64,000 nucleotides of DNA from Candidatus Latescibacterota bacterium (GTDB lineage: Bacteria > Latescibacterota > UBA2968 > GCA-2709665). The stretch's first letter is position 1. Each line of letters opens with the position of its first letter. The position numbers and the translations under genes were made by a program. Below the pieces are notes generated by a model. The model was not told the DNA's origin, did not search any database, and was given only the letters and a program-made list of their open reading frames with translations. The DNA lies in contig CAXXXF010000003.1 in the NCBI GenBank assembly GCA_963667175.2, forward strand, positions 256,001 to 320,000, read 5' to 3'. Shown piece by piece: positions 16,507 to 41,127 of this stretch.

Positions 16507-16523
16507 TGTCGCAAAATGCAACA
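16507..16523. promoter_or_regulatory. Palindromic operator-like site, consensus TGTCGCA-N3-TGCGACA
   Basis: Copies with 1-2 mismatches start at 12415, 13584, 15874, 16507, 28149, 31537 and 36208; all but 15874 lie 60-85 bp upstream of a start codon. Confidence 0.7.
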
Positions 16524-16567
16524 TCTTTCTCGCACGCAAACAGCTCCGCATATAAGAGGATCTTGCC

Positions 16568-19528
16568 ATGAACAGTCGAGGAAAAGTTGCCATCGGGTTG
16601 CTGATCGCGATGGGCGCGGTATTCGCGGGGGTTGGGTCCGTTTCCGCGCAGACCGCTGGGGACGCGGATTTTGACGACAGCGGCGAGGTGGGCTTTCAGG
16701 ACTTCCTGCTGTTTGCGGCGAAGTTCAATACCGCGAGGGGCGACGCCAATTACGACGCCAGGTTCGACCTGGACGACAGCGGCGCGGTGGGGTTTGCGGA
16801 TTTCCTCGCGTTCGCGCGGTTTTTCGGCGAGACTGTGCCCGTGCCTGCGCTGGCGCTGACCGGGATCGCGCCGTCGGAAGGGATGCCCGGAACGCTGATC
16901 GAGCTGGTGGGGCAATTTGACGCCAATACGGCGTATCAGGTGAAATTCGGCACGGTCTTGTTGCCGGTGTTCGCGCAAGACGCGGAGCGGATTACCGCCA
17001 TGGTGCCCGTGTTGGAAAGCGGGTCCGTGCCGGTGCTCGTGGTTGACCCGTCGGGCCGGGAATCTGATCCCATGTCGTTTGAGGTGCTGGCGCTCTCTGA
17101 ACCGCGGATGAACGTCGAGCAGTTGCAACAGACAGTGTCGGACGTCGGGGACGGCATCGGAAACGTGCTGGCGCCGGTGATTGACGCCGGTGTGTTTCCC
17201 AACGACGCGGACGCGGCGTTGTTCAACCAGGAAATGGATAAGCTGAACGCGGCGTGGGACATCCTCGGGCAGCGGATCGCGGCGCTGCCGCCGGAGGACG
17301 CGGCGCTGTTGACGCAACTTCTGGACAACAGCGGCGCGTTGGGGATTCTGGAGGGCCTGGGACAAATCGACTTAAGCGCGTCGAAGGTACCGGCGGAGAG
17401 CAGTTCGACGCATCAGATATTTTTTCGTGTGGATATCGTCAGTGCGCTCTTGGGCTATGCCGCCGACGTGACCATGGCATTGACGATAGCGAACGCGTTC
17501 TTCCCGGAACCGTTGTTCACGAAAGCCATGACCGCCGCACTGGGGGGGTTCAGCACGTTCATCGGTGTGGTGAAATCCGGAATTGACGCGGCCATACCAA
17601 CGGATTTGCAACGCGTCAGCAAAGTAGAGATAAATCCGACGCCGGTGCTGGTGGGGGGCGTATCCGACGTGGCGTTTTACGGGGAGTTCAAGACGGAGAG
17701 TAATTTGCTCGCTGAGCTGGGATCAGAGGGGGTTGGCAAGGGGATGGAAGAGATCGTGAAGGTCTTCATTCTCAGGAAGAAAGGCGAGAAGTTCCTGGAG
17801 GAGTTACAGGAGAACCCGGTGGTGTCCGACGCGGTCGACGAAATTGTCGGCTTTTTCTCGGGCATCCTCTCGAACGTCGGTTTTGGCGTGACGGGGTTGG
17901 AGAACCTCTTTAATAAAGTAGCGCTGCCGCGGGATGACGTGCGATTGGATATGTCGCTGTACCGTCTCAGCGCGCCAAGCATAATAAAGTGGCTAATACC
18001 GCCGTTCCCCGCCGAAGAGATTGACAAGATGTTGCGCGTTCTGGAAAGAGTCGGAATTGACGTGGTTTCCGAATCGGTGGAGGTCGTGGATCGTGACGAC
18101 GACGTGAATGAAGACGTGGCGGTGTATGATCCTGCAAAGGTTCAACTGACGGGAAAGACAGCGGGCGTGATGCGGCTGAAGATGCGGGCATTTCGGTTTG
18201 TGGAGCCGGGAGGCGAGTCGGGTGATGAGCCGGGAGAAGAAAACAGGAGTTTTTGGGGCCGTGTGTGGGATCGCGCGAAGCAAATCGCGGCAATTCCGTT
18301 GGACTTTCTGAAAAACCTTCATCCTATCTTTCGATTTTCCAATTCGATGGAGCGTCTGGATCCAGTGTACGTTGAATTTGCGGTGAAGGAGCCCGGGTCC
18401 GACGTCGAGGGACCCCTCGAGGTCGAGTCGATACGTAGACTGACCAACTTCAACAGTGGCAATGTCAAGGATTACCAATGGTCGCCGGACGGTCGTCATA
18501 TCGCATTCGATCTGGTTTTTTACGACGAACGCATCGAAAGAGACCGAGAGATCTACGTGGTTGGATTGGACGGGAGTAATCCTCGCAACCTGACCAACAG
18601 CGATTCCTTGGACACAGGTCTCGTTTGGTCTCCTGACAGCCGCCACATTGCCTTCTACTCCAACCGGGACGGCAATACGGAGATCTACCTGATAGGATCG
18701 GACGGGAGCGACCTGCGCAACCTGACCAACAATGACGCCCCGGACGGACATCCCTCGTGGTCGCCTGACGGGCGGCACATCGCCTTTACATCCAAACGCG
18801 ACGGCGACGGCGAGATCTACGTGATGCGTTCGGACGGGAGCAGGCTGCGCAACCTGAGGTACCTCCGCCTTAGCTCTGAATTCTCTCCCGTTTGGTCGCC
18901 GGACGGCCGGCACATCGCGTGCTCATCCTATCGCGACCGCAAACACGAGATCCGCGTGATAGGATCGGACGGGAGGAACCAGCGCAGATCGTCAAACAGC
19001 CACTACCCATTGTGGCCATTCTGGTCGCCGGACGGCAGTCATATCGCCTTCGAATTTTACAACGACCGCTCAAGAGATCGCGAGATTCGCATATTGAGAT
19101 TGGACCCGCACAAATGGGTCACAATGTACCAGTTTTCTAATTCGTTTATTCAACTCAGTTGGTCGCCGGACGGTAGTCATATCGCCTTCGTTAACAAAGC
19201 CACGAGAGGCAGCCGGGCGGGAACCTCTAGCATCAACGTAGCGAGATCGGACGGTAGCGGCAGGTTCAACCTGACAGAGAATGCTACCTCGAGAAACCAT
19301 TGGCCCGTCTGGTCGCCCGATGGCCGGCACATCGCATACGTCTCCCGAAGCGGTAGTTACTTTGCGATTCACATGATGAGGTCGGATGGGAGCGACCTGC
19401 GCAGACTGACCAGCTACGTTGCCTACGACCAGAGGCCCTCGTGGTCTCCTGATGGCCGGCACATCGCCTTCGGTTCCGAGCGCGACCGCGATCTCTACCT
19501 GATCACATTTAAGGGCGGCGGACAATAG
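16568..19528 (+). CDS. Array protein A: signal peptide, dockerin-like EF-hand pair, IPT/TIG, helical region, PD40/TolB-like beta-propeller
   Basis: 986 aa; DFDDSGEVGFQDF / DLDDSGAVGFADF repeat; 8 WSPD repeats; ends GGGQ. Confidence 0.9.
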   Translation: MNSRGKVAIGLLIAMGAVFAGVGSVSAQTAGDADFDDSGEVGFQDFLLFAAKFNTARGDANYDARFDLDDSGAVGFADFLAFARFFGETVPVPALALTGIAPSEGMPGTLIELVGQFDANTAYQVKFGTVLLPVFAQDAERITAMVPVLESGSVPVLVVDPSGRESDPMSFEVLALSEPRMNVEQLQQTVSDVGDGIGNVLAPVIDAGVFPNDADAALFNQEMDKLNAAWDILGQRIAALPPEDAALLTQLLDNSGALGILEGLGQIDLSASKVPAESSSTHQIFFRVDIVSALLGYAADVTMALTIANAFFPEPLFTKAMTAALGGFSTFIGVVKSGIDAAIPTDLQRVSKVEINPTPVLVGGVSDVAFYGEFKTESNLLAELGSEGVGKGMEEIVKVFILRKKGEKFLEELQENPVVSDAVDEIVGFFSGILSNVGFGVTGLENLFNKVALPRDDVRLDMSLYRLSAPSIIKWLIPPFPAEEIDKMLRVLERVGIDVVSESVEVVDRDDDVNEDVAVYDPAKVQLTGKTAGVMRLKMRAFRFVEPGGESGDEPGEENRSFWGRVWDRAKQIAAIPLDFLKNLHPIFRFSNSMERLDPVYVEFAVKEPGSDVEGPLEVESIRRLTNFNSGNVKDYQWSPDGRHIAFDLVFYDERIERDREIYVVGLDGSNPRNLTNSDSLDTGLVWSPDSRHIAFYSNRDGNTEIYLIGSDGSDLRNLTNNDAPDGHPSWSPDGRHIAFTSKRDGDGEIYVMRSDGSRLRNLRYLRLSSEFSPVWSPDGRHIACSSYRDRKHEIRVIGSDGRNQRRSSNSHYPLWPFWSPDGSHIAFEFYNDRSRDREIRILRLDPHKWVTMYQFSNSFIQLSWSPDGSHIAFVNKATRGSRAGTSSINVARSDGSGRFNLTENATSRNHWPVWSPDGRHIAYVSRSGSYFAIHMMRSDGSDLRRLTSYVAYDQRPSWSPDGRHIAFGSERDRDLYLITFKGGGQ

Positions 19529-19774
19529 CCGAGAAGCAGAAGGCAGCAATAAGCGGTCAGCATTCAGCCGTCAGCTTGAATCAAGAGTCAAACCTCCCAT
19601 CCGCCCCGCAGACCTCACCCCCCGGCCCCCTCTCCCAGAGGGAGAGGGGGAGCAGACAGCTTAAAGCAAAACCAGGACACCGCGAGCGGATCACCGTTCC
19701 CCCCTTCCCTCCGGGAAGGGGGATAGGGGGTAGGTCGCACGGAAACCGCTCCGCATACAAGAGGAGATCTCGCC

Positions 19775-22700
19775 ATGAACAGTAAAGGAAGATTTGTCAT
19801 CGGGTTGCTGATCGCGATGGGCGCGGTATTCGCGGGGGTTGGGTCCGTTTCCGCGCAGACCGCTGCGGACGCGGATTTCGACGACAGCGGCGAGGTGGGC
19901 TTTCAGGACTTCCTGCTGTTTGCGGCGAAGTTCAATACCGCGAGGGGCGACGCCAATTACGACGCCAGGTTCGACCTGGACGACAGCGGCGCGGTGGGGT
20001 TTGCGGATTTCCTCGCGTTCGCGGGTCTGTTCGGGCAGCCTGCGCCGCGAGGCAAGCCCCCGGTTGCGGACGCGGGAGCGTACCAGAGCGTGGACACGGG
20101 CGACGTGGTCACGCTCGACGGCTCGAACAGCAGCGACCCGGAAGGGCAGCCGCTGACCTTCGCGTGGCGTCAGATCGACGGGCCGCTCGTCGCGCTATCG
20201 GACGCAAGCGTTGCGCGTCCCACGTTTCGCACCGGCCAGGCCGGGCATTATACGTTCGAGCTTATCGTAAACAACGGCGCGGCTGAGAGCCTGCCCGATA
20301 CGGTTGCCGTCGACGCGGCGACGATCTCGGAGGCGGCGGTGTTTGCGGGCGGCCCCGACGCGTCGTTTACGTATAAGGAGACGTCGGGCGATCAGATGGT
20401 CTTTGCGGTGGGGTCGGGCGCGCCCGAGGTGCAGGTGGGCGCGGTGATGGTCAACACCGTGGATCCGTTCTTCCTGAAGAAGGTGACGCGCGTGGTCAGC
20501 CGGGATGCGGCCGAGCTGGTCGTCGAAACCGAAGACGCCGCACTCACCGACGTCGTGGAAGAGGCCTCGGTACGACAGACGCTCACGTTTCCGGATCCGG
20601 CGTCGAAGGTGGCCCTGATCGACCTTGTCAGCGACCCCAGGCAGGTGTGCACGGACGAGACGGAGGCGTTGTGCGCCACGGCTTCGAACATCAGCCTGTC
20701 TCCCAGAATCCATTTCGATATCAATATCGAGGACGGGGGCGTCGATAGCCTTGTCGTTGCGGCCGGGGTCGAGTTCAAGGCCGATTTCGAGTTCCAAATG
20801 GAAGCGGCCGCGGGCTTCAGCCGGGAGCGCGAAGTCGATCTGAAATTGGGTCCATTGGCAGAGAAGCTGAAGGGCGCCCTTAAGTTCGGTCAGAGTCTGT
20901 CCATCCCGGTAAACGTGACGCCCGAACTGGGCTTTGGTGTGAAAGGAAGCATCCAGGTGGCCGGCAAGTTCAAGGCCGGCGTTAACGTCAACAGAACCAT
21001 CAACGTGGGCATCAAGTACAAGGACGGCCAATTCCACAACTTCGGCACGGGGGACGACGGAGACGCGCAGGACGGGATCTCCCCTGAAATCGGCCTGTAC
21101 GGGAGCGTCAATCTGAGCGCCTACGCGTACGGGAGGCTCAACGTCGGGTTGGGCAAAGGCACCGGCAACTGGGAGGCCGGGGTGGGCGCAGTCAGTTTCG
21201 GACTGGTTCCGTACGTGGGATTTGACGCTGAAGCCAGCGCGACGTCCAGCCGGCGGCAACCGACCCTGGATTGGGCAATCAGCATGGGGGTCAACGCGGA
21301 AGTGAGTGTGAACGGCCCTTATGTCAGGTTTTTCAGCTTGTCACTCGAGACGTTTGCCAGAGATTGGGAATTTGCCCTGTTTCAGGTGACCCTCTCGAAT
21401 GGGAACGCGCCCGTGAGGACGGGACCGGTATTGGTGGACCTTAATCTGGAAGGCGTCACGTATCATGGCGGCGATTTATATGCGCTCTATGCGAAGGAAA
21501 ACGGCGGCAGGGTCTACGCGGAGCGACGGAACCCATGTGGTTCATGGGAATATCGGGAGCTGTTTGATCTTGCAACGGTGGAACATCTGACAGATCGAGA
21601 AAAGGAGCTGAACCGGCGTATCTTTTACGCGATGGGGATCGCCTCTGCCAGCCCCGGTCCGAGCACGAAGATCCTATACGTGGTTGGGCTGGACGACATG
21701 CCGGTCGGGGATGGCGTGAATAGCGTCCCGAGGCTGTATAAATACCAGAATCACAGGACGGAACAGGGATGGGAGGGATGGAAACAGGCTAACGTCTACC
21801 ATTTGTCCGAAGAAAATGGGTTCCCTGTGGGTATCGCCTACGATAACGAAGGGCACTTCTATGTCGTTGACCGCGAGACAAAAAAGGTCCACGTGTATTC
21901 GGAATCCGCAAAGGACGGCATGAACCTCACGTCGGTCAGGACCTTCGATCTGGACTCCGGGAATGGCATTCCGTACGGCATCGTGTACGGCGAAGACCGA
22001 ATCTACGTGGTGGATCGCGCCGGCGACAAGGTCTTTGCATACGCCCGTTCCGGCGAGCGCGTAACGGGCGCGGACTTCAGTCTGGATGACGACAACGGCG
22101 ATCCGTCCGGTATCGCGTATGCCAACGGCGGCTTCTACGTGGCGGATTCCGAAGACGGGATATTCTATGAATACGCGGGTACGGTGACAGTACTTTCAGT
22201 ACGCAGACTGACGAACAACGACGCCGGGGACAGTGGTCCCCAGTGGTCGCCTGACGGCCGGCAGATCGCCTTCAATACCGACCGCGACGACGGCAATTCT
22301 GAGATCTACGTGATGGAATCGGACGGGAGCGACCCGCGCAACCTGACCAACAATGACGCTTCGGACTTTCATCCCTCGTGGTCGCCTGACGGCCGTCAGA
22401 TCGCGTTCACCTCCTATCGCGACGGCGATTCTGAGATCTACGTGATGGGATCGGACGGGAGCGACCCGCGCAACCTGACCAACAACCACAGCGACGACGA
22501 CGAACCTTTTCCGGGGTGGTCTTCGGACGTTAATCCCTGGTGGTCTCCCGATGGCCGACAGATCGCCTTCAGATCCAGACGCACAGTTTTTGGCTATTAT
22601 GATCGCCGGCACCGGCCCTGGAATGTCTGGGTGATGGAATCGGACGGGAGCAACCCGCGCAGTATTTCCTATAACATTACACTGTGGGCCAACAGTTCAG

Positions 22701-23236
22701 GTTGGCCTTACCCCTGGTCGCCTGACGGCCGGCTTCTCGCGTTCACCGACAAAGACGACGAGCACGGCCATATCTACGTGACTGATTCGTATGGGAGCTT
22801 TCGCCGCGCACTGAACGGCGGCGCCTCCGTTCACGCCAGTAACTCTCATCCCTCGTGGTCGCCTGACGGCCGTTATATCGCCTTCCATTCCGACGATTGG
22901 GTGTACAGAGAAGGGGTGGAAATCTACGTGATTGGGCCGGATGGTCGCAACCCGTGCAACCTGACCAACAACAGCAGGAGGGCCTACGAACGCGATCCCT
23001 CGTGGTCGCCTGACGGCCGGTATATCGCGTTCACCTCCTATGGCGACGGCAACAGCGAGATCTACGTGATGGGATCGGACGGGAGCGACCCGCGCAACCT
23101 GACCAACAATGACGGTAATGACGGGTACCCCGTCTGGTCTCCCGATGGCCGGCGGATCGCGTTCATCTCCGATCGCGACGGCAACGTCGAGATCTACGTG
23201 ATCGATCTGCAGATCGTCAACGCAGGCGGGCAATAG
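19775..23236 (+). CDS. Array protein B: signal peptide, dockerin-like, PKD-like, beta-rich region, NHL-like propeller, PD40 propeller
   Basis: 1153 aa; same N-terminus as A, then PVADAG...TLDGSNSSDPEG.PLTFAWRQ (PKD-like); GIAY..G.FYVVD repeats; 7 WSPDG repeats. Confidence 0.9.
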   Translation: MNSKGRFVIGLLIAMGAVFAGVGSVSAQTAADADFDDSGEVGFQDFLLFAAKFNTARGDANYDARFDLDDSGAVGFADFLAFAGLFGQPAPRGKPPVADAGAYQSVDTGDVVTLDGSNSSDPEGQPLTFAWRQIDGPLVALSDASVARPTFRTGQAGHYTFELIVNNGAAESLPDTVAVDAATISEAAVFAGGPDASFTYKETSGDQMVFAVGSGAPEVQVGAVMVNTVDPFFLKKVTRVVSRDAAELVVETEDAALTDVVEEASVRQTLTFPDPASKVALIDLVSDPRQVCTDETEALCATASNISLSPRIHFDINIEDGGVDSLVVAAGVEFKADFEFQMEAAAGFSREREVDLKLGPLAEKLKGALKFGQSLSIPVNVTPELGFGVKGSIQVAGKFKAGVNVNRTINVGIKYKDGQFHNFGTGDDGDAQDGISPEIGLYGSVNLSAYAYGRLNVGLGKGTGNWEAGVGAVSFGLVPYVGFDAEASATSSRRQPTLDWAISMGVNAEVSVNGPYVRFFSLSLETFARDWEFALFQVTLSNGNAPVRTGPVLVDLNLEGVTYHGGDLYALYAKENGGRVYAERRNPCGSWEYRELFDLATVEHLTDREKELNRRIFYAMGIASASPGPSTKILYVVGLDDMPVGDGVNSVPRLYKYQNHRTEQGWEGWKQANVYHLSEENGFPVGIAYDNEGHFYVVDRETKKVHVYSESAKDGMNLTSVRTFDLDSGNGIPYGIVYGEDRIYVVDRAGDKVFAYARSGERVTGADFSLDDDNGDPSGIAYANGGFYVADSEDGIFYEYAGTVTVLSVRRLTNNDAGDSGPQWSPDGRQIAFNTDRDDGNSEIYVMESDGSDPRNLTNNDASDFHPSWSPDGRQIAFTSYRDGDSEIYVMGSDGSDPRNLTNNHSDDDEPFPGWSSDVNPWWSPDGRQIAFRSRRTVFGYYDRRHRPWNVWVMESDGSNPRSISYNITLWANSSGWPYPWSPDGRLLAFTDKDDEHGHIYVTDSYGSFRRALNGGASVHASNSHPSWSPDGRYIAFHSDDWVYREGVEIYVIGPDGRNPCNLTNNSRRAYERDPSWSPDGRYIAFTSYGDGNSEIYVMGSDGSDPRNLTNNDGNDGYPVWSPDGRRIAFISDRDGNVEIYVIDLQIVNAGGQ

Positions 23237-23634
23237 CCGAGAAGCGGGGGGACCTTCATTCGGGGAAAGGCAGTGGCCGGTAGAGGCAGTGGACAGTGGT
23301 CAGCGAAAAGCAGCAATCAGCATTCAGCCGTCAGCTTGAAGCAAGAGCGAACCAATTGCACTAAGCGCCGGGACGTGGCAGGAATAAACGGAACGTGGCC
23401 CTCACCCCCCGGCCCCCTCTCAAAGGGGAAAGGCAGTGGTCAGTGGTTAGTGGCCAGAGAGAGGCGGTGAGGATATCGACTGTCACTCCCCCCTTGGGGG
23501 GGAGTCGGCAAGGCAAGGGCGCCAGCCCGAAGGCGCGCCGGAGGGGGGCGCTTTCGGGTCTACCCATGTAAATTCCGTTTTCCGAACACAGAGGTTGACG
23601 CAAGCCGCCCAGCATACACGAGGGAAATCTCGCC

Positions 23635-27693: not shown

Positions 27694-28212
27694 CCGCGAT
27701 GCGGGGGGGACCGTTACCAGGGGAAAGGCAGTGGCGAGGAAAAGCAGTGGTTAGTGGCCAGTGGTCAGTAAAGGCAGCGTTCAGCCGTCAGCCACGACCT
27801 GTTGACGATAGGGATTGGCGATAACAATTCAGGAAAATCCGTCGGTTTGTAGGGGCGGTTCGCGAACCGCCCGATTTGCGCAGAGCTCTCCCCCCGGCCT
27901 GCCTGCGCCTGCCTGTCCCGTTGGAGCGGCAGACAGGTCGAGTTCTGCTCGGCAGGCAGGCCCCCTCTCCCAAAGGGAGAGGGGGAGCAGGACAGAGTGT
28001 ATATCCATTCGCGGATGCCTGGATCTTGTGTAGGGGCGGCCGGCCGGTCGCCCCTACAGATGCGACGCCGGTGGGGGGCGTTTTCGCAACCATCCATATA
28101 AACTCCGTTTTCTGAACACAGAGGTTGACGCAGGCCGAAGCCGACAACTGTCGCAAAATGCGTCATCTTAACTCGCACGGAAACCGCTCTCCATACAAGA
28201 GGAGGTCTCGCC

Positions 28213-30927: not shown

Positions 30928-31021
30928 CCGCGAAGCAGGGTGACCCTCATCGGGGGAAAGGCAGTGGTCGGGAAAAGCAGTGGCCAGTGATCAGTGGTCA
31001 GTAAAGGCAACGGCCAGTAAA

Positions 31022-31600: not shown

Positions 31601-34600
31601 ATGAATAATAAAAGAAAAGTCGTCATCGGGTTGCTGATCGCGATGGGCGTTGTCTTCGCGGGCGCCGGGTCCGTTTCCGCGCAGACCGCTGCGGACGCGG
31701 ATTTTGACGACAGCGGCGAGGTGGGCTTTCAGGACTTCCTGCTGTTTGCCGCGAAGTTCGGGCTGAGCCAGGGCGACGCGGATTACGACGCCAGGTTCGA
31801 CCTGGACGGCAGCGGCGCGGTGGGGTTTGCGGATTTCCTCGCGTTCGCGCGGCTGTTCGGCGAGACTGTGCCCGTGCCTGCGCTGGCGCTGACCGGGATC
31901 GCGCCGTCGGAAGGGATGCCCGGAACGCTGATCGAGCTGGTGGGGCAGTTCGACGCCGATACGGCGTATCAGGTGAAATTCGGCACGGTCTTGTTGCCGG
32001 CGTTCGCGCAGAACGCGGAGCGGATGACCGCCATGGTACCCGTGTTGGAAAGCGGGTCCGTGCCGGTGCTCGTGGTTGACCCGTCTGGCCGGGAGTCTGA
32101 GCCCACGTCGTTTGAGGTGCTGGCGCTCCCCGAGCCGCGGATGAACCCCGAGCAACTGCAACAGGCGGTGTCGGGGGTCGGGGACGGCATCGGAAACGTG
32201 CTGGCGCCGTTGACCGCGCCGGACAGTCTGTTCAGCGCGGCGGACGCGGCGATGATCAAGGATGAAATGGATAAGCTGAACGCGGCGTGGGGCATCCTGG
32301 GGCAGCGGATCGAGGCGCTGCCGCCGGAGGACGCGGCGCTGTTGACGCATCTTCTGGACAACAGCGGGGCGTTGGGCATTCTGGAGGGTCTGGGAACAAT
32401 CGACCTGAGCGCGTCGAAGGCGGTGGGGCCGGGCGCCGCCTTCGGTCATCAGAAGTTATTCCAGGCGGACGTGGTGAGCTTTCTGATGGGGAACGCCAGC
32501 GCCGCGACTTCAGTGGCCACGGTGATCGCGGCGGTGGTGCCCGGCGGGCAGGCCCTGGTCCCGATTCTGGCGGCCATCGACGCCGTCAGCGGCGCGACGA
32601 AAGCGGTCATCGACGCGATCTTCCCAACGGATCTGGAGAACCTCAGGGTCGAAATATCTCCGACGCCGGTGCCGGTGGAGGGCACGTCCGACGTGTCGTA
32701 TTATGGGGACTTTGTCACGGAGAGCGACGCCATCAGCGCGCTGGGGGGAAAATTGCTGGAGGACGCCGTAGAGGAACTGTTGGAAAGCTTCCTCAAGATA
32801 CCGAAGGTGTCCGAGGCCGCGGCGGAGGAAATCGTGGGCTTCGTCTCCGGCATCCTGTCGGCTGCGGGTATGAAGGGATTCGATTGGATCACGGGCGGCG
32901 CAACGATAAGCCCCGCGCTGAAGGACGTGCCATTGGATATGTCGGTGTATCGACTCAGCGTATTCGATCTCCTGCAGGTCATACCGACGTTGCCTGGCAA
33001 AGAGACGGCGGACGCGATCGAGTATCTGCTGGGAAAGGCCGGGATCGACGTGACGTTCTTCGATCCGGTGGTGGTCGAGAACGAGGCGGTGGCGGCGTAC
33101 GACAGGCTGAATGCTCGGCTGACGGGAAAGAGGTCGGGCGCGACGCGGCTGACGGTTCGGGCAATACGATTTGTGGAGTGGGACTCCTGGTGGAATTGGC
33201 TCGGTGTCTGCAAGTGGGAGACGGTCGGGCCCGTGTATCCGAACGTCAACGTCGGGACGATGGCAACCAGCTCTCCCTTCTATCTGGATGACCAAAACGA
33301 CCGTCCGAGAGGTATCACGTATGCCAACAACCGGTTCTACGTGATTGGTGGCAAGGTCTATGCGTATACGGCTGCGGGTCAGCGTGACGCGGCTTCAGAC
33401 TTCTATATGGATCACGTGTTTCGGCGAGGTATCACGTATGCCGATGACAGATTCTTCGTCTTAGGTCACGATAAGGTCCACGCGTATATGAATTCAGGTC
33501 AGCGTGACGCGGCTTCAGACTTCGATCTGGATGACGACTACGAATCTCTCGAAAAGATCACGTATGCCAACGACCGACTCTACGTCGTTGCTGAGCCCAA
33601 AAAGTTACATACGGAATACGAAAGGAAGTTGTACGCGTACACGGTTTCGGGTCAGCGTGACGCGGCTTCAGACGTCGAACTGCTTAGACCAAATGCTCTC
33701 CCGTTCGGAATTGGGATTACGTATGGCGCCAGTGATACGTACGGTATCACGTACGTCAATAACCGATTCTTTCTCGTACGTCGCGACAAGGTCTACGCGT
33801 ACACGAATTCGGGTCAACGTGACGCGGCTTCAGACTTCGATCTGGATTTCCGGATCACCCATTTTGTTTCCGCCGTATATCCGCGAGGGATCACGTCTGC
33901 GAACAACCGATTCTATGTCCTCGAAGACTCCACCCATATCGATGCAGACCCCAATGACAGGGTCGGCGTATACGAGTATTCCGGCCGGTTTCGTCCGAGT
34001 CCCGACCTGATTGTGAATACGTCCGTCAGAGAAAAGGCCCTGGCGCCAGGGCAATCCTTCACACTCTCGGCAACTGTGAAGAACGTCGGGGACGCGCAAG
34101 CGTCTTCCACAACGTTGCGCTACGTTCGTTCCGATGATTGGTCTATTTCCCAGGACGACACGCAGGGTGGCTCGGCCGCCGTAGGCGTTCTCGATCCATT
34201 GGACACGAGCCCCGTGAACGTCACCCTGACTGCGCCGTCGACAGCGGGAACGTATTATTACTGGGCGCATGCAGACGTGTTGGAACAGGAAGAAATCGAG
34301 TACAACAATTACTCGGAGGTCGCGCAGGTCTCCGTTTACGATGTTGGCACGCCCACGAGCACGGACTTTGAACTGGCGAACAACAACAGTCCCTCCAGTA
34401 TCACGTATGCCAACGACCGATTTTACGTCGCAGATTTGGAGGATGGGAAGATTTACGCGTACACGGTTTCGGGTCAGCGTGATACGGCTGCAGACTTCAA
34501 GTTGGAGCCGCACGTCGTGCCGCTTGGTATCACGTACGCCAATAGGCGATTCTACGTCGCGGATGTCTCCGGAGGCAAGGTCTACGCGTACACGGTTTCG

Positions 34601-35788
34601 GGTCAGCGTGACGCGTCTGCAGACTTCGCGGTGAGTGACAGTGCGCTCACCGGGATTACGTATGCCAACGACCGATTCTTTGTCGTTCATGCCTCGGATG
34701 ATAAGGTCTATGCGTACACGGGATCGGGGCAGCGTGACGCGGATTCAGACTTCGAGCTGGATGGCGACTTTTCGCCGTTTGGTCTCACGTATGCCAACGA
34801 TCGATTCTATGTCGCAAAAAAGCGGTGGGACAGTCGTCGTGGGAATGTGACGGTCTATGCGTACACGAGTTCGGGGCAACGTGACCCGGATTCAGACTTC
34901 ACGCCGAGGCATTGGAGTATTTCCCCTTTTCTTGGAGGTCTCACGTATGCCAATGGCCGATTCTACGTCATCACGACCATCGACAGGTATGGGCGTGGCT
35001 CTAGAGATTTTTCGGGAGCCGGCAGTTGGAGTGCCGAAGTGTTCGGAACTTCAGGAGGTTCGTTCTTTCTGGATATTAACGATGATCCAGTGAGTATCGC
35101 GTATGGCAACAATCGATTCAACGTCTTAGAATCCGTAGGAAAAGTCTATACGTACAAGAGTTCGGGGCAGCGTGACCCGGATTCAGATTTCGAGTTGATC
35201 GATAGCCATTCGGGCATGACGCATGCCAACAATCGATTCTACGTCGTCACCCGTGACGACAGGGGCCGCGGTTTTGCGTACGTATACACGAGTTCGGGCG
35301 AGCGTGACGAGGCTTCAGATTTCAAACTGTCTCATGGCGGGTTTTCTAGTATCACGTATGCTAGTATCACGTATGCCGACAACCGATTCTACGTCGTCGG
35401 TTAGCCTGATTCGGATGGCAACAGACGGTATGGTACGTATACGCGTTCCGGAGAGGTTCTTGAAGTGGATCCGGACACCGATCTGGCAAGAAAGATGGCC
35501 CGCATTTCGGGGAGAATCGCTTATGGAAACAACCGATTCTACGTTGCGGATGCCGCCGGAGGCAAGATCTACGCGTACGCGAGTTCTGGTGAGCGTGACG
35601 AGGCTTCAGACATCGATGTGATTGGTACTCCTTCCTGCATGACGTATGCCAACAACCGACTATACGTTGTCGTTTCGCGTACTCGTCAACGTCGCCTTCC
35701 TCAACTTGCTCCCGGCGATGGTTTCCCTCAACTCAGCGCAGATTATCGCTATGATGTCGTCGAGGTGCACACGCTTTCCGGGAAGTAG
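31601..35788 (+). CDS. Array protein E: paralog of C, interrupted by one in-frame TAG at 35402-35404 (truncated allele or readthrough)
   Basis: ORFs 31601-35404 and 35465-35788 are in the same frame; sequence after the TAG continues the same repeats and ends TLSGK* like TLSGQ* of C. Confidence 0.82.
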
Positions 35789-36271
35789 CCTCGAAGCGGG
35801 GGAACCCTCGCCGCCCAACACCCCGGAGGGGAAAGGCAGTGGTTAGTGGCCAGTGGTCAGTAAAAGGCGGTGATCAGCTTGAAGCAAAAGCGAACCACCC
35901 ATCCGCCCCGCAGACCTCTCCCCCCAACCCCCTCTCCCAGGGGGAGAGGGAGCAGAACCGGGCGTATATCAAGCGATGACAGTTCCCCCCTTCCCCCCGG
36001 GAAGGGGGAAAGGGGGTAGGTCTGGGAGGCGGTGAGAGGGGGAGAAAACCGGGGCGAGGGTATCGACTATCACTCCCCCCTTGGGGGGGAGTCGGCAAGG
36101 CAAGGGCGCCAGCCCGAAGGCGCGCCGGTGGGGGGCGTTTCCGCAACCATCCATATAAATTCCGTTTTTTGAATGAGCGTAGCGTTACGCAGGCCGTAGT
36201 CGACAACTGTCGCAAAATGCATCACCTGATCTCGCACGTAAATCGCAGCGCATACAACAGGAGATCTCGTC

Positions 36272-39200
36272 ATGAACAAGAAGGCAGGATTTGTCATCGG
36301 GTTGCTGATAACGATGGGCGTTGTCTTCGCGGGCGCCGGGTCCGTTTCCGCGCAGACCGCTACGGACGCGGATTTTGACGACAGCGGCGACGTCGGGTTT
36401 GGGGACTTCGTGCTGTTTGCCGCGAAGTTCGGGCTGAGCCAGGGCGACGCCAATTACGACGCCAGATTCGACCTCGACGACAGCGGCGACGTGGGGTTCG
36501 CGGACTTTGTCGCGTTCGCGCGGTTATTCGGCGAGACCGTGCCCCTGCCCCCGCTGGCGCTGACCGGGATCGCGCCTGCGGAAGGGATGCCCGGAACGCT
36601 GATCGAACTTGTGGGGCAATTTGACGCCGATACGGCGTATCAGGTAAAATTCGGGACGGTCTTGTTGCCGGTGGACGCGCAAGACGCGGAGCGGATGACC
36701 GCCATGGTACCCGTGTTGGAAAGCGGGTCCGTGCAAGTGCGCGTGGTCGAGGCGTCGGGCCGGGAATCCGAGCCGACGTCGTTTCGGGTGCTGGCCCTGC
36801 CGGCGCCGCGGATGAACGCCGAGCAGTTGCGGCAGACCGTTGCGGACGTGGGGAAAGGCATCGGGAACGCGTTTGTGCCGTTGACGGGCGCCGGCGAGGT
36901 TTTCAACGCGGCGGACGCGGCGCTGTTCAACCGGGAGATGGGCAAGCTGAACGCGACGTGGGGCGTCATCGGGGAGCGGATCGCGGCGCTGCCGCCGGAG
37001 GAGGCGGCTTTGTTGTCGAACCTTCTGGACAACAGCGGCGCCCTGGGGATTCTGGAGGGCCTGGGAAAAATCGACCTGAGCGCGTCGAAGGTGGCAGCGG
37101 ACGCCGACGTTCTGTTGCATCACCTGTTTTATCAGCTGGATCTGATCAGCTTTGCGCTGGGCAACGTCACGGCCGTCCTTGACGTGGTGACCGTCGTCAG
37201 CGCGGTTGCCGCCGTGACCGGGGTCGGGACGCTTGTGTCGGGTCTGTCGGCGGTCACCAGCATCACCCTCTCTTTGACGCAAGTTGCGATAAACTCGTTC
37301 ATTCCAACGGACTTGAAAGAGCTTGAGGTGGAAATAGCGCAGACCCCGGTGCCGGAGAGGGGCCGGTCCGACGTCGCGTTTTTCGGGGTCTTCAAGACGG
37401 AGAATGACGCGGGGGTGGGCGGGGTGGCGAGCGTGACGTTAAATGCGGCCATCAGCAAACTATTGGAAAAGTACATCAAGTCGGAGGAGATGGCGGATGA
37501 GGCGGCGCATGCCATTGAAAATTACGTCAGAGGCGTCTACTCGCAGGTCTTTGGGGATGCGGTAGGTAGTCTCGTGAAGATTGAGTTGTCGGATCTGGAT
37601 TCCGAGCTTCGCGTGCGGTTGGATATGGGGATCTACCGCAAAGGTCTGTTGGACACCATCTTTGATGTCGTGCCGGTGATCGGGACCGCAATAGGCTCGT
37701 TGCTGGAAAAGCTCGGCATTGACCCGACGTATCATGAACCGGTGACGGTTCAGGATACGGACGTGGCGACGTATCAACCGAGGACGGATCAACTTGAGGG
37801 GATCAAAGCGGGCAAGACACTGCTGACGGTGCGGGCGTACCGGTTCGAGGAGTACGCGATTACCGTTGTTATTCCCTTTACGGATCACACGGTTACGTTG
37901 GCCAGTATCTGGAAACCGGCGGGGGTGGCGACGCAGGCGCCGTTTGAAGTGACCCGATCGTTCAACTTTCAGGGGATCGCCCATGATGATAGGGACGGCG
38001 ATTTCTATACGCTTCACGCGGCCGAAGGGCGTGGCGGCGGCGTCTGGGGCGCGCACAAGAAGCCGGATGGTTCCTGGGAGTATAACGAGCTTTTCAACCT
38101 GTCAACCGTTGGACATTTAACCGGATCTCAGAGGGAGCAGGACAGGCGTGTTTCGTTGCCGCTTGGCATCACGTTCGGCAGCACGGGTCAGTCTAACCGG
38201 CAGCTGTACGTGGTTGGGATGGAGACCGTCGGGGAAGGGGAGGCCGCGAAATACGTCGCGGCGCTGTTTAATTATATGAGCACCAGGGATAACCCCAGTG
38301 ACAAGTGGGGCGAATGGCAGCAGAGAGCCGTCTATACGCTGCCCGGTGAAAACGTCGCGCCGTTTGGCGTCGCCTTTGTCAACGGCCACTTTCACGTGGT
38401 GGACGCGGAGGCATTGCGGGTCTACGCGTATACCGCGTCCGGTTCGGGCTTGAACCTGCAGCGTGACAGGACCTTCAATCTGGTTTCGGACAATGGTTTT
38501 CCCGGAGGCATCACGTACGCCGACGGGCGCTTCTACGTGGTGGACCTGGAGGACGAAAGGATCTACGCGTACGCGCGCTCCGGAGATTCGTGGGCGCATG
38601 ACGCCTTGTCAGATTTCAAACTGGACAACGACAACAGCCATCCGAGCGGTATCACGGTTGCCAACGGCCTGCTCCACGTGGTCAACTCGGGCGACGGGAA
38701 GATCCACGAGTACGGACCGAATCCGGTTGTGGAATCGCTTGCGGCCGACGACAGCACCCTGACCACGGGAAGGACGCTCACGCTGCGGGCCGTGATTCGC
38801 AACCGGGGCATTGCGGCGGGGCCTTCGGGCACGTTGCGGGTTTACCGACGCACCCATACACGAATGGCGGGTACCGAGTGGTGGAATCCTGGACGTGCGA
38901 TGGAAATCGCCACGAACGACTTCAACGGTCTCAAGCCGGGAGAAGCAAGGGCCCAAACGATCGACCTGGGGGCGCCGAAAGAAGGGAGGTACGATTACTA
39001 CGCGTGCGTGACGGACGACGAAGGCGCGGATCGCAATTGCTCGAAGGAGGTGGGCGTGTCGGTTGTGTTCGGCGGCGCGCCGGCGCCCGAGGGCGTTGCG
39101 GTCTATCGTCTGGACCCTGACAACGGTCTTCCGGCGGGTGTCACCTCTGCCGAGGGCGAATTCTACGTGGTGGACGCGGATTCCACGGTCTACGCGTATG

Positions 39201-40771
39201 ACTCCAGCTGGAACCGGGCTTCGAGTTCAGACTTCAAACTGACCGCCGCCAACGGTTTCCCGGAAGGGATCGCCGCTGCCGCCGGCCGATTCTACGTGGT
39301 TGACCGGGGCAGTCCTCGCGTTGCAAACAACAAGGTCTTCGTGTATGCCGGTTCCGGAACGTCGGCGTCTCAGGGCTTTTCGTTGCGGACGGGCGCCCCG
39401 CCGCGGGGTGTGGTCTATGCCGATGGGCGGTTCCGCGTGGTTCATTCGGACCGGAGAGCGCTCGTCTCCGCTTTTGCGTACGATTCCGGCGGGTTTCGGA
39501 ACCTGTCCGATGAATTCCCGCTCGAAGAAGACAACGACGCTCCGGCGGGCATCGCCTACGCCGACGGCCTCTTCTTCGTGGTTGACAGCGAGTTTGAGAA
39601 AGTCTACGCGTACGACGGTTCCGGGATGCACAAGCCGACGCTGGACTTCGCGCTGCATTCCTCGAATGCCGACCCGTCCGGTATCGCGTACGCCAACAAC
39701 CGGTTCTACGTGGTCGACGCGAGGGACTCGCTGGTCTACAGGTATCCGAAGCCCGAAAAGCCGGACCTGACTGTGGAATCGCTCGTAGCCAGCGCCGACA
39801 CGCTGGCCCCGGGGGAGGCCTTCACGCTGATCGCGACGGTGAAGAACGTCGGAAACGCGGCCTCGGACGCGACGACGCTGCGCGGTTCCGCTGGCGGCGG
39901 GGAATTCGTGGTCGAGTCGATACGCAGACTGACCAACCGCAGTTATGGCGAAATCGACCCCGCGTGGTCTCCCGATGGTCGGCACATCGCCTTCGCATAC
40001 GAACCGGCCGACGGCAGCATTTCCTCGAACCGCCACAAACTCTACGTGATGGAATCGGACGGAAGCAATCCACGCATCCTGACAAACGACCCTGCGGGGT
40101 CCATCCAACCCGCGTGGTCGCCCGATGGCCGGCGCATCGCCTTCGCATCCAATCGCGACGGCAACTGGGATATCTACGTGATGGAATCGGACGGAAGCAA
40201 TCCACGAAACCTCACAAACTACGTTGCCGGACGCGAAGAGTACCCCGCGTGGTCTCCCGATGGCCGGCACATCGCCTTCGCATCCAATCGCGACGACAAC
40301 AATGATATCTACGTGATGGAATCGGACGGAAGCAATCCACGAAACCTCACAAACAACGCGAACGCTACCGGAGACTCCCGTTCGTATATACCCGCGTGGT
40401 CTCCCGATGGCCGGCACATCGCCTTCGAATCCTGGCGCGACGGCAACTATGATATCTACGTGATGGAATCGGACGGAAGCAATCCACGAAACCTCACAAA
40501 CGACCGCAGTGCGGGGTACCGGGACCCCGCGTGGTCGCCCGATGGCCGGCACATTGCCTTCGTATCCTATAGCGACGCCTACGGCTTTGATATCTCCGTG
40601 ATGGGATCGGATGGAAGCAATCCACGCAACCTGACAAACACAAACAGCTGGACCGAAATCGAAGTGTCGCCCACGTGGTCTCCCGATGGCCGGCACATCG
40701 CCTTCGACAAACGGAGCAACGGCTCTGCTTCCGCTATCTACGTGATCACGTTTCAGCGCGGCGGGCAATAG
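36272..40771 (+). CDS. Array protein F: signal peptide, dockerin-like, IPT/TIG, helical region, NHL-like propellers, CARDB, truncated CARDB, PD40 propeller
   Basis: 1499 aa; mosaic of modules seen in B, C and A/D; ends RGGQ. Confidence 0.9.
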   Translation: MNKKAGFVIGLLITMGVVFAGAGSVSAQTATDADFDDSGDVGFGDFVLFAAKFGLSQGDANYDARFDLDDSGDVGFADFVAFARLFGETVPLPPLALTGIAPAEGMPGTLIELVGQFDADTAYQVKFGTVLLPVDAQDAERMTAMVPVLESGSVQVRVVEASGRESEPTSFRVLALPAPRMNAEQLRQTVADVGKGIGNAFVPLTGAGEVFNAADAALFNREMGKLNATWGVIGERIAALPPEEAALLSNLLDNSGALGILEGLGKIDLSASKVAADADVLLHHLFYQLDLISFALGNVTAVLDVVTVVSAVAAVTGVGTLVSGLSAVTSITLSLTQVAINSFIPTDLKELEVEIAQTPVPERGRSDVAFFGVFKTENDAGVGGVASVTLNAAISKLLEKYIKSEEMADEAAHAIENYVRGVYSQVFGDAVGSLVKIELSDLDSELRVRLDMGIYRKGLLDTIFDVVPVIGTAIGSLLEKLGIDPTYHEPVTVQDTDVATYQPRTDQLEGIKAGKTLLTVRAYRFEEYAITVVIPFTDHTVTLASIWKPAGVATQAPFEVTRSFNFQGIAHDDRDGDFYTLHAAEGRGGGVWGAHKKPDGSWEYNELFNLSTVGHLTGSQREQDRRVSLPLGITFGSTGQSNRQLYVVGMETVGEGEAAKYVAALFNYMSTRDNPSDKWGEWQQRAVYTLPGENVAPFGVAFVNGHFHVVDAEALRVYAYTASGSGLNLQRDRTFNLVSDNGFPGGITYADGRFYVVDLEDERIYAYARSGDSWAHDALSDFKLDNDNSHPSGITVANGLLHVVNSGDGKIHEYGPNPVVESLAADDSTLTTGRTLTLRAVIRNRGIAAGPSGTLRVYRRTHTRMAGTEWWNPGRAMEIATNDFNGLKPGEARAQTIDLGAPKEGRYDYYACVTDDEGADRNCSKEVGVSVVFGGAPAPEGVAVYRLDPDNGLPAGVTSAEGEFYVVDADSTVYAYDSSWNRASSSDFKLTAANGFPEGIAAAAGRFYVVDRGSPRVANNKVFVYAGSGTSASQGFSLRTGAPPRGVVYADGRFRVVHSDRRALVSAFAYDSGGFRNLSDEFPLEEDNDAPAGIAYADGLFFVVDSEFEKVYAYDGSGMHKPTLDFALHSSNADPSGIAYANNRFYVVDARDSLVYRYPKPEKPDLTVESLVASADTLAPGEAFTLIATVKNVGNAASDATTLRGSAGGGEFVVESIRRLTNRSYGEIDPAWSPDGRHIAFAYEPADGSISSNRHKLYVMESDGSNPRILTNDPAGSIQPAWSPDGRRIAFASNRDGNWDIYVMESDGSNPRNLTNYVAGREEYPAWSPDGRHIAFASNRDDNNDIYVMESDGSNPRNLTNNANATGDSRSYIPAWSPDGRHIAFESWRDGNYDIYVMESDGSNPRNLTNDRSAGYRDPAWSPDGRHIAFVSYSDAYGFDISVMGSDGSNPRNLTNTNSWTEIEVSPTWSPDGRHIAFDKRSNGSASAIYVITFQRGGQ

Positions 40772-41127
40772 CCGCGAAGCAGGGTGAAAATCATCCGGGG
40801 AAAGGCAGTGGTCAGAAAAAGCAGCAATCAGCGGTCAGCATTCAGCCATCAGTTTGAAGCAAAAGCGAACCACCCACCCGCCCCGCAGACCTCTCCCCCC
40901 GTCCCCCTCTCCCAGGGGGAGACGGGGAGAACAGCAGGCGTTTCGCCATCAAGAGACTTCGCCTGTGGTTTGTGCATCAATCGAAGCGCGTTCGGCTGGC
41001 GACAGTTCCCCCCTTCCCCCCGGGAAGGGGGATAGGTCTGGGAGGCGTTGAGACGGGAGAGGACTGCACCGCTGAGATCGGATAACGAAATGGCATGGCG
41101 ATGTCAATTTATGGAGACAATAACGCA

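What the first reader, a model, noticed from the sequence alone, without database searches (positions are those of the whole stretch)
19514..40812. Shared 3' DNA junction spanning the stop codon of all six cassette genes, regardless of C-terminal domain
Seen: A, B, D and F (PD40 ends) and C and E (NHL-like ends) all finish with GG(G/A)(CAA/AAG)TAGCC.CGA/GAGA..GC. In B-F this is followed by GGGGAAAGGCAGTGG, and in all six by heptamer repeats. The protein tails are GGQ*, SGQ* or SGK*. Unrelated domains converging on one terminal sequence implies a fixed right-hand recombination boundary or a short C-terminal processing signal (inference).
Basis: seen in the sequence. Interest (0 to 1): 0.7.

Follow-up and report, generated by a model that had tools for sequence, protein, structure and literature searches.

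The report
Shared gene-end sequence in paralog array
Six neighbouring copies of a secreted binding-protein gene share the same short stretch of DNA across their stop codon because they are recent duplicates that keep exchanging sequence, and this is an ordinary by-product of gene-family evolution rather than a special signal.

Summary
All six tandem genes end in GG(G/A)(CAA/AAG)TAGCCnnGAnGC. This 18-nt pattern occurs 6 times in the 5.52-Mb genome, only at these stops (0.14 expected). GGGGAAAGGCAGTGG follows in B-F, and 7-nt repeats follow in all six.

Only about 37 nt are specific to the array, from -9 to about +28. The GGGGAAAGGCAGTGG box and the heptamers belong to repeat families found across the genome.

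The "unrelated domains converge" puzzle dissolves. A, B, D and F share a homologous PD40 tail...ITFQGGGQ*. C and E are sister genes, and their NHL-like repeat carries the motif YAYTxSGQRD. Both stop exactly after the SGQ of a last copy. One recombination at the shared Gly-Gln codons (GGGCAA) in the C/E ancestor explains both classes.

The junction is 65-92% identical between copies, no more than synonymous sites in the 5' ends (72-98%). I found no conserved RNA fold, terminator, recombinase gene or readthrough frame, and no amino-acid conservation in relatives.

Verdict: this is the inherited 3' end of a duplication unit in a paralog array under gene conversion. It is not a processing signal or a dedicated recombination site. 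Interest is low.

The parts
16568..19528 (+). Gene A (986 aa): signal peptide, dockerin-like EF-hand pair, TIG, unknown module, PD40 propeller; tail ...LITFKGGGQ*
19775..23236 (+). Gene B (1153 aa): shares only its first ~272 nt with the others, then PKD, NHL-like repeats and PD40; tail ...QIVNAGGQ*
23635..27693 (+). Gene C (1352 aa): N-terminal module, NHL-like propeller, CARDB, second NHL-like propeller; ends VRAYTLSGQ*
28213..30927 (+). Gene D (904 aa): N-terminal module and PD40 propeller; tail ...VITFQGGGQ*
31601..35788 (+). Gene E: sister of C, interrupted by an in-frame TAG at 35402-35404; ends VEVHTLSGK*
36272..40771 (+). Gene F (1499 aa): N-terminal module, NHL-like repeats, CARDB and PD40 in one protein; tail ...VITFQRGGQ*. 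This is the architecture from which a C/E-type end could arise by deletion
19520..19549 (+). Junction A (-9 to the start of the heptamers); shortened by a ~36-nt deletion between AAGCAG repeats
23228..23276 (+). Junction B: last 2 codons, TAG, array-specific flank and the GGGGAAAGGCAGTGG box
27685..27734 (+). Junction C
   Evidence: (X6 record 25, 27567-27719, no differences) covers the -9 boundary
30919..30967 (+). Junction D
35780..35842 (+). Junction E, with CAA>AAG and an extra stretch of about 16 nt (GCCCAACACCCCGGAG; the E junction is 63 nt against 49-50 in B, C, D and F)
   Evidence: (X1 record 4, 35197-35903) bridges it
40763..40811 (+). Junction F; no family gene follows, so the element belongs to the 3' end of the upstream gene
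   Evidence: (X3 record 22, 40731-41030) bridges it
27664..27690 (+). Last copy of the NHL-like repeat motif in C (VRAYTLSGQ), cut off where internal copies continue with RD..SDF
35759..35785 (+). Last copy of the same motif in E (VEVHTLSGK)
27745..27769 (+). Example of a CAGTGGT heptamer tract behind a junction. Others are at 19544-19575, 23434-23457, 30962-31018, 35837-35861 and 40822-40852. These repeat families occur genome-wide
41095..42675 (+). Gene G: PD40 protein outside the family. Its tail ...IYVIALQDGGP* TAA CCG is homologous to the family tail through the stop to +3, then unrelated. It serves as the outgroup showing that the GG(Q/P)-stop end belongs to the PD40 module
15528..16567 (+). 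Gene-less stretch upstream of A built from the same intergenic modules. A 5'UTR-like module (to ~15884) is joined to a module like that downstream of D (from ~15911), a probable scar of a deleted array member

Best explanation
The junction is the inherited 3' end of a tandemly duplicated gene unit. It comprises the last two codons, the TAG and about 28 nt of array-specific 3' flank. Behind it lie heptamer and palindromic repeats of families spread over the genome.

Four genes (A, B, D, F) keep it together with a homologous PD40 tail (...ITFQ-GGGQ-stop). The other two (C, E) descend from one ancestor in which the C-terminal part was removed. The removal was a recombination or deletion between the Gly-Gln codons of its NHL-like repeat motif YAYTxSGQ|RD (TCG GGG CAG/CAA) and the Gly-Gln-stop of the PD40 tail (GGC GGG CAA TAG). 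SGQ is the natural end of that propeller domain, so the product stayed intact.

Gene conversion among the copies, evident at the 5' ends, keeps the flanks alike.

Shown: the sequence facts, genome-wide uniqueness, motif truncation, mosaic identity, and lack of structure or amino-acid conservation. Inferred: the direction and single-event nature of the C/E recombination, and that conversion rather than selection maintains the flank.
For: (1) Uniqueness. The 18-nt pattern occurs 6 of 6 times at these stops in the genome. A profile of -12..+30 finds only B-F, plus A weakly. Copy-number profiling gives 0 copies outside the array for the first ~35-45 nt after each stop, against 10-40 copies for modules further downstream.

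(2) C and E stop inside their own repeat. 7 internal copies in C and 11 in E read xYxYxxSG(Q/E)RD; the last copy reads ...AYTLSGQ* / ...VHTLSGK*. The first propeller of C and E also ends ...HSGQ / ...YSGR just before the CARDB domain.

(3) Homology between C and the PD40-type genes starts at -9/-10, at CGGGCAATAG.

(4) C and E are sisters (83-99% per 100-nt window), so one event suffices.

(5) The PD40 tail is native to the PD40 module. Gene G ends ...ALQDGGP* and aligns through the stop to +3. Relatives end ...NGGGK and ...EEGGQ.

(6) There is no excess conservation: junction 65-92% against synonymous-type sites 72-98%. Indels are tolerated in A and E.

(7) Gene conversion is shown by incongruent blocks. 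A-C is 95-98% at +21..520, 77-81% at 521-720 and about 50% beyond 820. B shares only the first 272 nt.

(8) The expansion is lineage-specific: 1 copy in 1 of 40 relatives, ending differently and without the flank.

(9) Short public contigs from three runs bridge the C, E and F junctions.
Against: D and F are 34 of 36 nt identical over their last 12 codons and 92% over the junction, while the PD40 coding sequence just upstream aligns at only ~70%. That local excess needs a recent conversion tract or some constraint, and I cannot tell which.

No PD40-bearing ancestor of C/E is available, so the deletion is a reconstruction.

The Ser codon of the last repeat is TCC, whereas 13 of 18 internal copies have TCG. 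The exact crossover point is therefore uncertain.

Two of four foreign PD40-type relatives also end GG(K/Q), which leaves room for weak protein-level preference.

Only one genome carries the array, and no population data of useful quality were obtained.
Confidence: 0.7

Rival explanations
1. The ~37-nt junction is a selected 3'-UTR element acting on the mRNA of each paralog, for example in stability, processing, small-RNA or protein binding, or termination.
For: It is present behind all six genes and nowhere else in the genome. It belongs to the 3' end of the upstream gene, since it is present after F and absent before A. D, F and B are 86-92% alike there.
Against: RNAalifold finds no conserved structure and 0 compensatory pairs. 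The one candidate hairpin (CCGCGAAGCGG) has no covariation, and 5 of 22 cells are unpaired. No terminator-like site lies at any junction; 17 were found in 18 kb against 15.7 expected. A has lost about two thirds of the element and E carries extra bases of about 16 nt. Conservation does not exceed synonymous sites.
Confidence: 0.1
2. The junction is the right-hand arm of a cassette-exchange system. Conserved 5' and 3' arms let the cell swap or truncate propeller modules between copies, either through a dedicated site-specific recombinase or by frequent homologous exchange.
For: Blocks of identity are incongruent between the 5' end, the body and the 3' end. B is a chimera after nt 272. The C/E end is a recombination joint. 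A gene-less scar lies upstream of A. In other assemblies the same N-terminal module is fused to PD40, NHL, LRR, WD40 and VWA modules.
Against: I found no integrase, recombinase or transposase among 21 large ORFs of the window at E<=1e-5. The junction has no inverted repeat or hairpin. All six copies have their own start, signal peptide and conserved upstream region, so there is no expression site with silent cassettes. Only one event is needed to explain the 3' ends. Joints seen in public contigs have sides of 34 nt or less and are not trustworthy.
Confidence: 0.1
3. GGQ/SGQ/SGK is a short C-terminal peptide signal for processing, sorting or attachment, selected at the protein level.
For: All six proteins end G-(Q/K). 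Two foreign relatives end GGGK and EEGGQ. Among frames of at least 500 codons only 8 of 1302 end GQ, and 5 of those 8 are these genes.
Against: The non-coding bases after the stop are as conserved as the last codons. The same-genus orthologue ends VEVGNE*, P0003 ends GDGE and gene G ends DGGP*. Of the 48 open frames of at least 300 codons that end GQ or GK, only one outside the array matched my rough dockerin-like pattern; it ends ...NTGK with TGA. The roughly 45 dockerin-module loci were not checked one by one. Pfam finds no sorting domain at any C-terminus. In C/E the SGQ is simply the repeat's own motif.
Confidence: 0.03
4. The array, or some of its junctions, is an assembly artefact produced by mis-joining at repeats in a metagenome-derived genome.
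For: The genome is in 18 contigs at 95% completeness. The array is rich in repeats, and E has an unexplained in-frame TAG.
Against: The junction copies differ from one another (65-92%), so they are not one collapsed repeat. Contigs assembled independently from public runs bridge the E and F junctions and the -9 boundary of C with 0-3 differences (records 4, 22, 25). One of these runs may, however, be the source sample.
Confidence: 0.04

Closest known systems
Tandem paralog arrays of surface or secreted repeat proteins evolving by duplication, gene conversion and domain loss (concerted evolution)
   Same: Six same-strand neighbours have 5' ends homogenised to 85-98%, incongruent identity blocks, variable repeat-domain bodies and shared non-coding flanks. 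The expansion is lineage-specific: one copy in one of 40 relatives.
   Different: Nothing essential differs. The one particular point is that the joint in C/E falls on Gly-Gln codons shared by two unrelated domains.
Integron gene cassettes with attC sites at the 3' end (features recalled from general knowledge, not from a call)
   Same: A conserved element sits at or across the stop codon of each gene in a one-directional array.
   Different: There is no imperfect-palindrome hairpin and no integrase in the window. The genes have their own conserved upstream regions and share 5' coding sequence. The element is ~37 nt with no GTTRRRY-type core on direct reading.
Gene-conversion antigenic-variation systems with conserved flanks around variable cassettes (pilE/pilS, vlsE; recalled)
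   Same: Conserved 5' and 3' segments flank variable middles, and there is evidence of conversion between copies.
   Different: All copies are complete genes with start codon, signal peptide and upstream region. There is no single expression site, and no evidence of ongoing switching.
STRR, the short tandemly repeated repetitive heptamers of filamentous cyanobacteria (passage read in PMC2670836: usually 7-bp repeats, function unknown)
   Same: Several families of tandem 7-nt units are dispersed over the genome. TRF reports 295 rows with period 7 at low stringency. At 2.9 copies or more, CAGTGGT arrays number 14 on 8 contigs and AAGGAAG arrays 28 on 10 contigs.
   Different: The host is not a cyanobacterium; a same-genus relative's protein is labelled Gemmatimonadota by NCBI. 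The unit sequences are not those of the cyanobacterial STRR families I recall. In the library searched, the phrase appears in 8 papers; the 7 listed are mainly about cyanobacteria, none deals with this lineage, and I read a passage in only one of them.
Eukaryote-like repeat proteins of sponge symbionts (search listing and start of abstract only: PMC13747020, PMC5524777)
   Same: These are secreted proteins with NHL-like, PD40/WD40-type and LRR modules. Parts of the locus are held by runs labelled sponge metagenome.
   Different: Those papers concern protein function in host interaction, not 3' junctions. Nothing here tests such a function.

Membership tests
Integron cassette / attC | 3' element is an imperfect inverted repeat that folds as a hairpin | tested here: not met
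   RNAalifold on six junctions gave -3.99 kcal/mol with 0 compensatory pairs. The named 4-bp hairpin had 77% of cells paired and no covariation.
Integron cassette / attC | Integrase gene (intI) next to the array | tested here: not met
   No integrase or recombinase family among 21 large ORFs of the 64-kb window at E<=1e-5. The rest of the genome was not searched for intI.
Integron cassette / attC | Cassettes are promoterless and unrelated at their 5' ends | tested here: not met
   All six share 5' coding sequence (81-94% over the first 270 nt), and about 40 nt (B) to 300 nt upstream of the start is also shared.
C-terminal sorting signals (PEP-CTERM, LPXTG, T9SS CTD, GlyGly-CTERM; names recalled) | A recognisable C-terminal domain or motif with a hydrophobic segment | tested here: not met
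   Pfam at E<=0.01 shows PD40, NHL and CARDB up to the end and no sorting domain. Only 3-4 residues follow the last beta-strand.
C-terminal sorting signals | Conserved at the amino-acid level in relatives with diverged DNA | tested here: not met
   Tails of relatives: VEVGNE, DAEEGDGE, NGGGK, GDEEGGQ, DGGP.
Intrinsic terminator | GC-rich hairpin followed by a T run | tested here: not met
   None of the 17 terminator-like sites in 19000-37000 lies at a junction; 15.7 were expected by chance.
STRR-like heptamer repeats | Tandem 7-nt units in several families, dispersed genome-wide | tested here: met
   TRF on the genome gave 295 period-7 arrays. CAGTGGT-type arrays number 14 on 8 contigs; the window arrays are.
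STRR-like heptamer repeats | Cyanobacterial host | tested here: not met
   A same-genus relative's orthologue is labelled Gemmatimonadota bacterium by NCBI. So these are like STRR, not members.
Gene-conversion cassette (antigenic-variation type) system | One expressed locus plus silent, promoterless partial cassettes | tested here: not met
   All six have ATG, signal peptide and conserved upstream sequence. Only E is broken, by one in-frame TAG.
Gene-conversion cassette (antigenic-variation type) system | Ongoing variation between cells or strains at the conserved arms | tested here: inconclusive
   Logan contigs of 4 runs are short. Listed joints have sides of 20-34 nt (one of 95 nt lies in gene G), below or near the tool's trust limit.
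Tandem paralog array under concerted evolution | Mosaic, incongruent identity blocks between copies | tested here: met
   A-C is 95-98% at +21..520, 77-81% at 521-720 and about 50% beyond 820. C-E is 83-99% throughout. B is homologous only to nt 272.
Tandem paralog array under concerted evolution | Lineage-specific expansion | tested here: met
   The N-terminal module was found in 2 of 41 related genomes including this one and in 3 of 168 in the phylum. It is single-copy in G003.

The most novel reading that the evidence does not exclude
The array is a self-diversifying set of dockerin-anchored secreted binding proteins in a sponge-associated bacterium. The homogenised 5' arm (about 520-820 nt), the 3' junction, and the Gly-Gln codon pair that recurs at the end of every NHL-like blade (18 internal copies in C and E) would serve as built-in crossover points. 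Through them propeller modules would be swapped, added or truncated between copies at appreciable frequency, tuning what the cell binds in its host.
Probability: 0.1. Interest if true: 0.55.

Novelty: new member of a known kind. Interest (0 to 1): 0.22.

Why it matters
The main value is as a worked example. A striking "convergent" terminal sequence on unrelated domains turns out to rest on two ordinary facts: shared ancestry of a duplication unit, and one recombination at a codon pair that both domains happened to contain. This cautions against reading short conserved gene ends as signals. The biologically more interesting object is the gene family itself. A patchily distributed carrier module (signal peptide, dockerin-like pair, TIG, and an unknown region of ~350 aa) is fused to many kinds of repeat domains and is expanded sixfold here. 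If the array does recombine at measurable rates, it would be a simple natural system for studying how modular binding proteins diversify in a symbiont.

Tried and rejected
Across 220 fetched loci the junction profile scored at most 22.4 bits, against 29-38 bits for true members. No locus encodes the N-terminal module. These are chance matches, roughly the number expected for 17 fixed bases.

2. Sequencing runs: no RNA holder was listed. Four runs were laid, but they are Logan contigs, short and of low depth. Their joints have short sides and were not used as evidence. Parts without cover mean nothing.

3. Readthrough of TAG was considered. Frames after the stop differ between copies: B, D and F read in one frame and C and E in another. 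They end after 7-29 codons in A, C, D and E and run on past 50 in B and F. TAG is an ordinary stop here, 328 of 1302 long frames. Rejected.

4. Small hairpin CCGCGAAGCGG just after the stop: no covariation. Rejected.

5. A mobile-element or MITE origin for the junction was considered. The junction has 0 copies outside the array, whereas the repeats behind it are generic. Rejected for the junction itself.

6. The resemblance of C's tail (WSDIAFGG) to the PD40 motif (WSPDGRHIAF) looked at first like a PD40 remnant. It lies in a loop insertion of the last NHL-like blade, so I treated it as coincidence.

7. E's in-frame TAG is followed by CCTGA, recalling TAGCCTCGA at E's true end. The loop is too diverged from C to identify the mutation. 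Left open.

8. Four look-ups of earlier scan notes returned nothing bearing on this locus.

9. Structure prediction, complex prediction and Rfam were not run. The domain-boundary argument rests on sequence alone.
Full report
**What is there.** The window holds six + strand neighbours: A 16568-19528, B 19775-23236, C 23635-27693, D 28213-30927, E 31601-35788 and F 36272-40771. Pfam shows that all begin with a signal peptide, a dockerin-like EF-hand pair and a weak TIG match. A, B, D and F end in 5-6 PD40 repeats. C has NHL repeats and CARDB; E has CARDB and the same NHL-like repeats below Pfam's threshold. F has NHL-like repeats, CARDB and PD40 in one protein. E is interrupted by an in-frame TAG at 35402-35404.

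All six end GG(G/A)(CAA/AAG)TAGCCnnGAnGC.
- The degenerate 18-mer has 6 matches in the window, against 0 in 100 shuffles.
- It has 6 matches in the whole 5.52-Mb genome, all at these stops, against 0.14 expected.
- GGGGAAAGGCAGTGG follows in B-F. A lacks it because about 36 nt between two AAGCAG repeats are missing.
- Period-7 tracts follow each junction.

**What is specific to the array and what is generic.** I profiled copy number by blastn-short against the genome.
- The first ~35-45 nt after each stop have no copy outside the array.
- Modules further downstream have 10-40 copies elsewhere. These are CAGCNNT heptamers and two palindromes of the CCCCCTCTCCCAGGGGGAGAGGGGG and TTCCCCCCTTCCCCCCGGGAAGGGGG kinds.
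- A profile of -12..+30 finds only B-F, plus A weakly.
- TRF finds 295 period-7 rows genome-wide at low stringency. At 2.9 copies or more, CAGTGGT arrays number 14 on 8 contigs and AAGGAAG arrays 28 on 10 contigs.
- The GGGGAAAGGCAGTGG box is the leading edge of the local heptamer module. It also occurs at 23425, and as variants near 15911 and 16172, away from any stop. AAGGCAGTGG has 8 of its 15 genomic copies outside the array.

The junction proper, about 37 nt from -9 to +28, is not a generic repeat. Everything behind it is.

**Why two unrelated domain types share the end.** The PD40-type tails are homologous to one another: LITFKGGGQ*, VITFQGGGQ*, VITFQRGGQ* and QIVNAGGQ*. Gene G (41095-42675) lies just downstream and is a PD40 protein outside the family. 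It ends IYVIALQDGGP* and aligns with D through the stop to +3, after which similarity stops. The Gly-Gly-(Gln/Pro)-stop end therefore belongs to the PD40 module.

C and E are built from a repeat with the motif (V/I)YAYTxSGQRDxxSDF.
- My pattern finds 7 internal copies in C and 11 in E, mostly coded TCG GGG CAG/CAA CGT GAC.
- C ends VRAYTLSGQ* and E ends VEVHTLSGK*. Both stop directly after the SGQ of a last copy.
- The first propeller of each protein ends the same way...FVYKHSGQ in C and ...VYEYSGR in E, immediately before the linker and CARDB domain. SGQ is thus the natural end of this domain.
- BLAST alignments of C with B, D and F all begin at -9, and on direct reading the identity is CGGGCAATAG.

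C and E are sisters, 83-99% identical per 100-nt window over nt +21 to about +1690 of the genes. One event in their ancestor is enough. That event would be recombination or deletion between the Gly-Gln codons of a repeat and the Gly-Gln-stop of a PD40 tail, in a gene with an architecture like F or B (propeller, optional CARDB, then PD40). It would remove the distal part in frame. The event itself is an inference; the sequence facts are shown.

**Is the flank under selection?** Pairwise identity of the junction is 65-92%. Third positions in the first 270 nt of the genes are 72-96% identical, and 74-98% at identical four- or six-fold codons. The 35 nt upstream of the starts are 69-94% identical. 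The junction is therefore no better conserved than sites expected to be near neutral, and it tolerates a ~36-nt loss in A and an extra stretch of about 16 nt in E.
- RNAalifold gives no conserved fold and 0 compensatory pairs.
- A small candidate hairpin fails, with no covariation and 5 of 22 cells unpaired.
- No terminator-like site lies at a junction.
- Frames after the TAG differ between copies, and TAG is a normal stop (328 of 1302 long frames).

One point goes the other way. D and F are 34 of 36 nt identical over their last 12 codons and 92% over the junction, while their PD40 regions align at about 70%. This calls for a recent conversion tract or some constraint.

**Gene conversion in the array.** Identity blocks are incongruent.
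- A-C is 95-98% at +21..520, 77-81% at 521-720, 93% at 721-820, and about 50% beyond.
- A-D and C-E remain high beyond 820.
- B shares only its first ~272 nt with the others, at 93% to A.
- At the 3' junction the closest pairs are D-F, B-D and B-F, a third grouping.
- Upstream of A, a gene-less kilobase (15528-16567) repeats the intergenic modules. A 5'UTR-like module runs to ~15884 and is joined to a module like that downstream of D from ~15911. This looks like the scar of a deleted member.

**Protein-level test.** The N-terminal module occurs in 2 of 41 related genomes including this one, in 3 of 132 in the class, and in 3 of 168 in the phylum.
- The same-genus copy in G003 is single. It ends ...ATFKRTVEVGNE* with TAA and has neither the flank nor heptamers behind it.
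- A database search found 34 proteins. The module is fused to PD40, NHL, LRR, WD40 or VWA/CARDB parts.
- Foreign PD40-type tails read ...ITFRRDAEEGDGE...ITFRNGGGK and ...ITLRRGDEEGGQ. The last strand is conserved; the tail is variable, and GG(Q/K) recurs in 2 of 4.
- Of the 48 open frames of at least 300 codons that end GQ or GK, only one outside the array matched my rough dockerin-like pattern, and it ends ...NTGK with TGA. I did not check the roughly 45 dockerin-module loci one by one.

A peptide signal is not supported.

**Recombination-site test.** No integrase, recombinase or transposase family appears among 21 large ORFs of the window. Each gene has its own conserved upstream region. The array is therefore neither an integron nor an expression-site system.

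**Outside data.** Pattern scans of two public collections gave only chance single matches. Parts of the locus are held by runs labelled sponge metagenome and by two others. Their short contigs bridge the E and F junctions and the -9 boundary of C with 0-3 differences, which argues against mis-assembly, although one run may be the source sample. The joints in those contigs are too short-sided to use.

**Literature.** The STRR heptamers of cyanobacteria are the nearest named analogue of the downstream repeats. I read one passage in PMC2670836. The phrase occurs in 8 papers of the library, and the 7 listed are mainly about cyanobacteria. Papers on eukaryote-like repeat proteins of sponge symbionts were seen only as a listing. 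The features of integron attC sites and of sorting signals are recalled, not taken from a call.

**Verdict.** This is a real, array-specific, DNA-level feature with an ordinary cause: the retained 3' end of a duplication unit in a gene-converting paralog array, plus one recombination at shared Gly-Gln codons. It is a new member of a known kind, and interest is low. The boldest reading still open is that the arms and the recurring Gly-Gln codons act as routine crossover points for module shuffling. I put that at about 0.1.

Noticed in passing
window 35402-35404: In-frame TAG inside gene E (...RFYVVG*PDSDG...), in a loop of an NHL-like blade. It could be a real nonsense mutation or a sequence error. 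The next bases (CCTGA) recall the TAGCCTCGA at E's true end.
   Followed up: partly
window 15528-16567: Gene-less kilobase upstream of A made of the same intergenic modules in tandem. A 5'UTR-like module is joined directly to a module like that downstream of D, the probable scar of a deleted array member.
   Followed up: partly
window 16568-18200 and equivalents in C-F (aa ~180-550): An N-terminal region of ~350 aa with no Pfam match, always behind a signal peptide, a dockerin-like pair and TIG. In other assemblies it is fused to PD40, NHL, LRR, WD40 or VWA modules. It was found in only 3 of 168 genomes of the phylum, a patchy distribution suggesting transfer.
   Followed up: partly
genome G000, about 45 loci (e.g. 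C3:138677, C18:209443, C6:627892): The ~60-aa dockerin-like EF-hand pair behind a signal peptide occurs in some 45 genes across the genome. This hints at a cohesin-dockerin-type display system; no cohesin partner was looked for.
   Followed up: no
window 19610-19650, 31197-31240, 35913-35960, 40888-40930 and 30-40 sites genome-wide: Perfect or near-perfect G/C-rich palindromes (CCCCCTCTCCCAGGGGGAGAGGGGG and TTCCCCCCTTCCCCCCGGGAAGGGGG types) recur in intergenic DNA like REP elements. They may be the real transcript-end structures of these genes.
   Followed up: partly
genome G000, TRF output: Several heptamer families (AAGGAAG, CAGTGGT, GAGACGG/CGTCTCA, CAGCNNT), with arrays of up to 26 copies (C15:406263-406447). 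This resembles cyanobacterial STRR but occurs in a lineage labelled Gemmatimonadota.
   Followed up: partly
window 41095-42675: Gene G has the dockerin-like pair in the middle of the protein (aa ~195-245) instead of at the N-terminus, followed by six PD40 repeats. It is another rearranged member of the modular set.
   Followed up: no
window 52337-54334 (- strand): A 666-aa protein whose last ~170 aa are an ECF-type sigma factor, behind a long N-terminal part with no Pfam match. This is an unusually long sigma-factor fusion.
   Followed up: no
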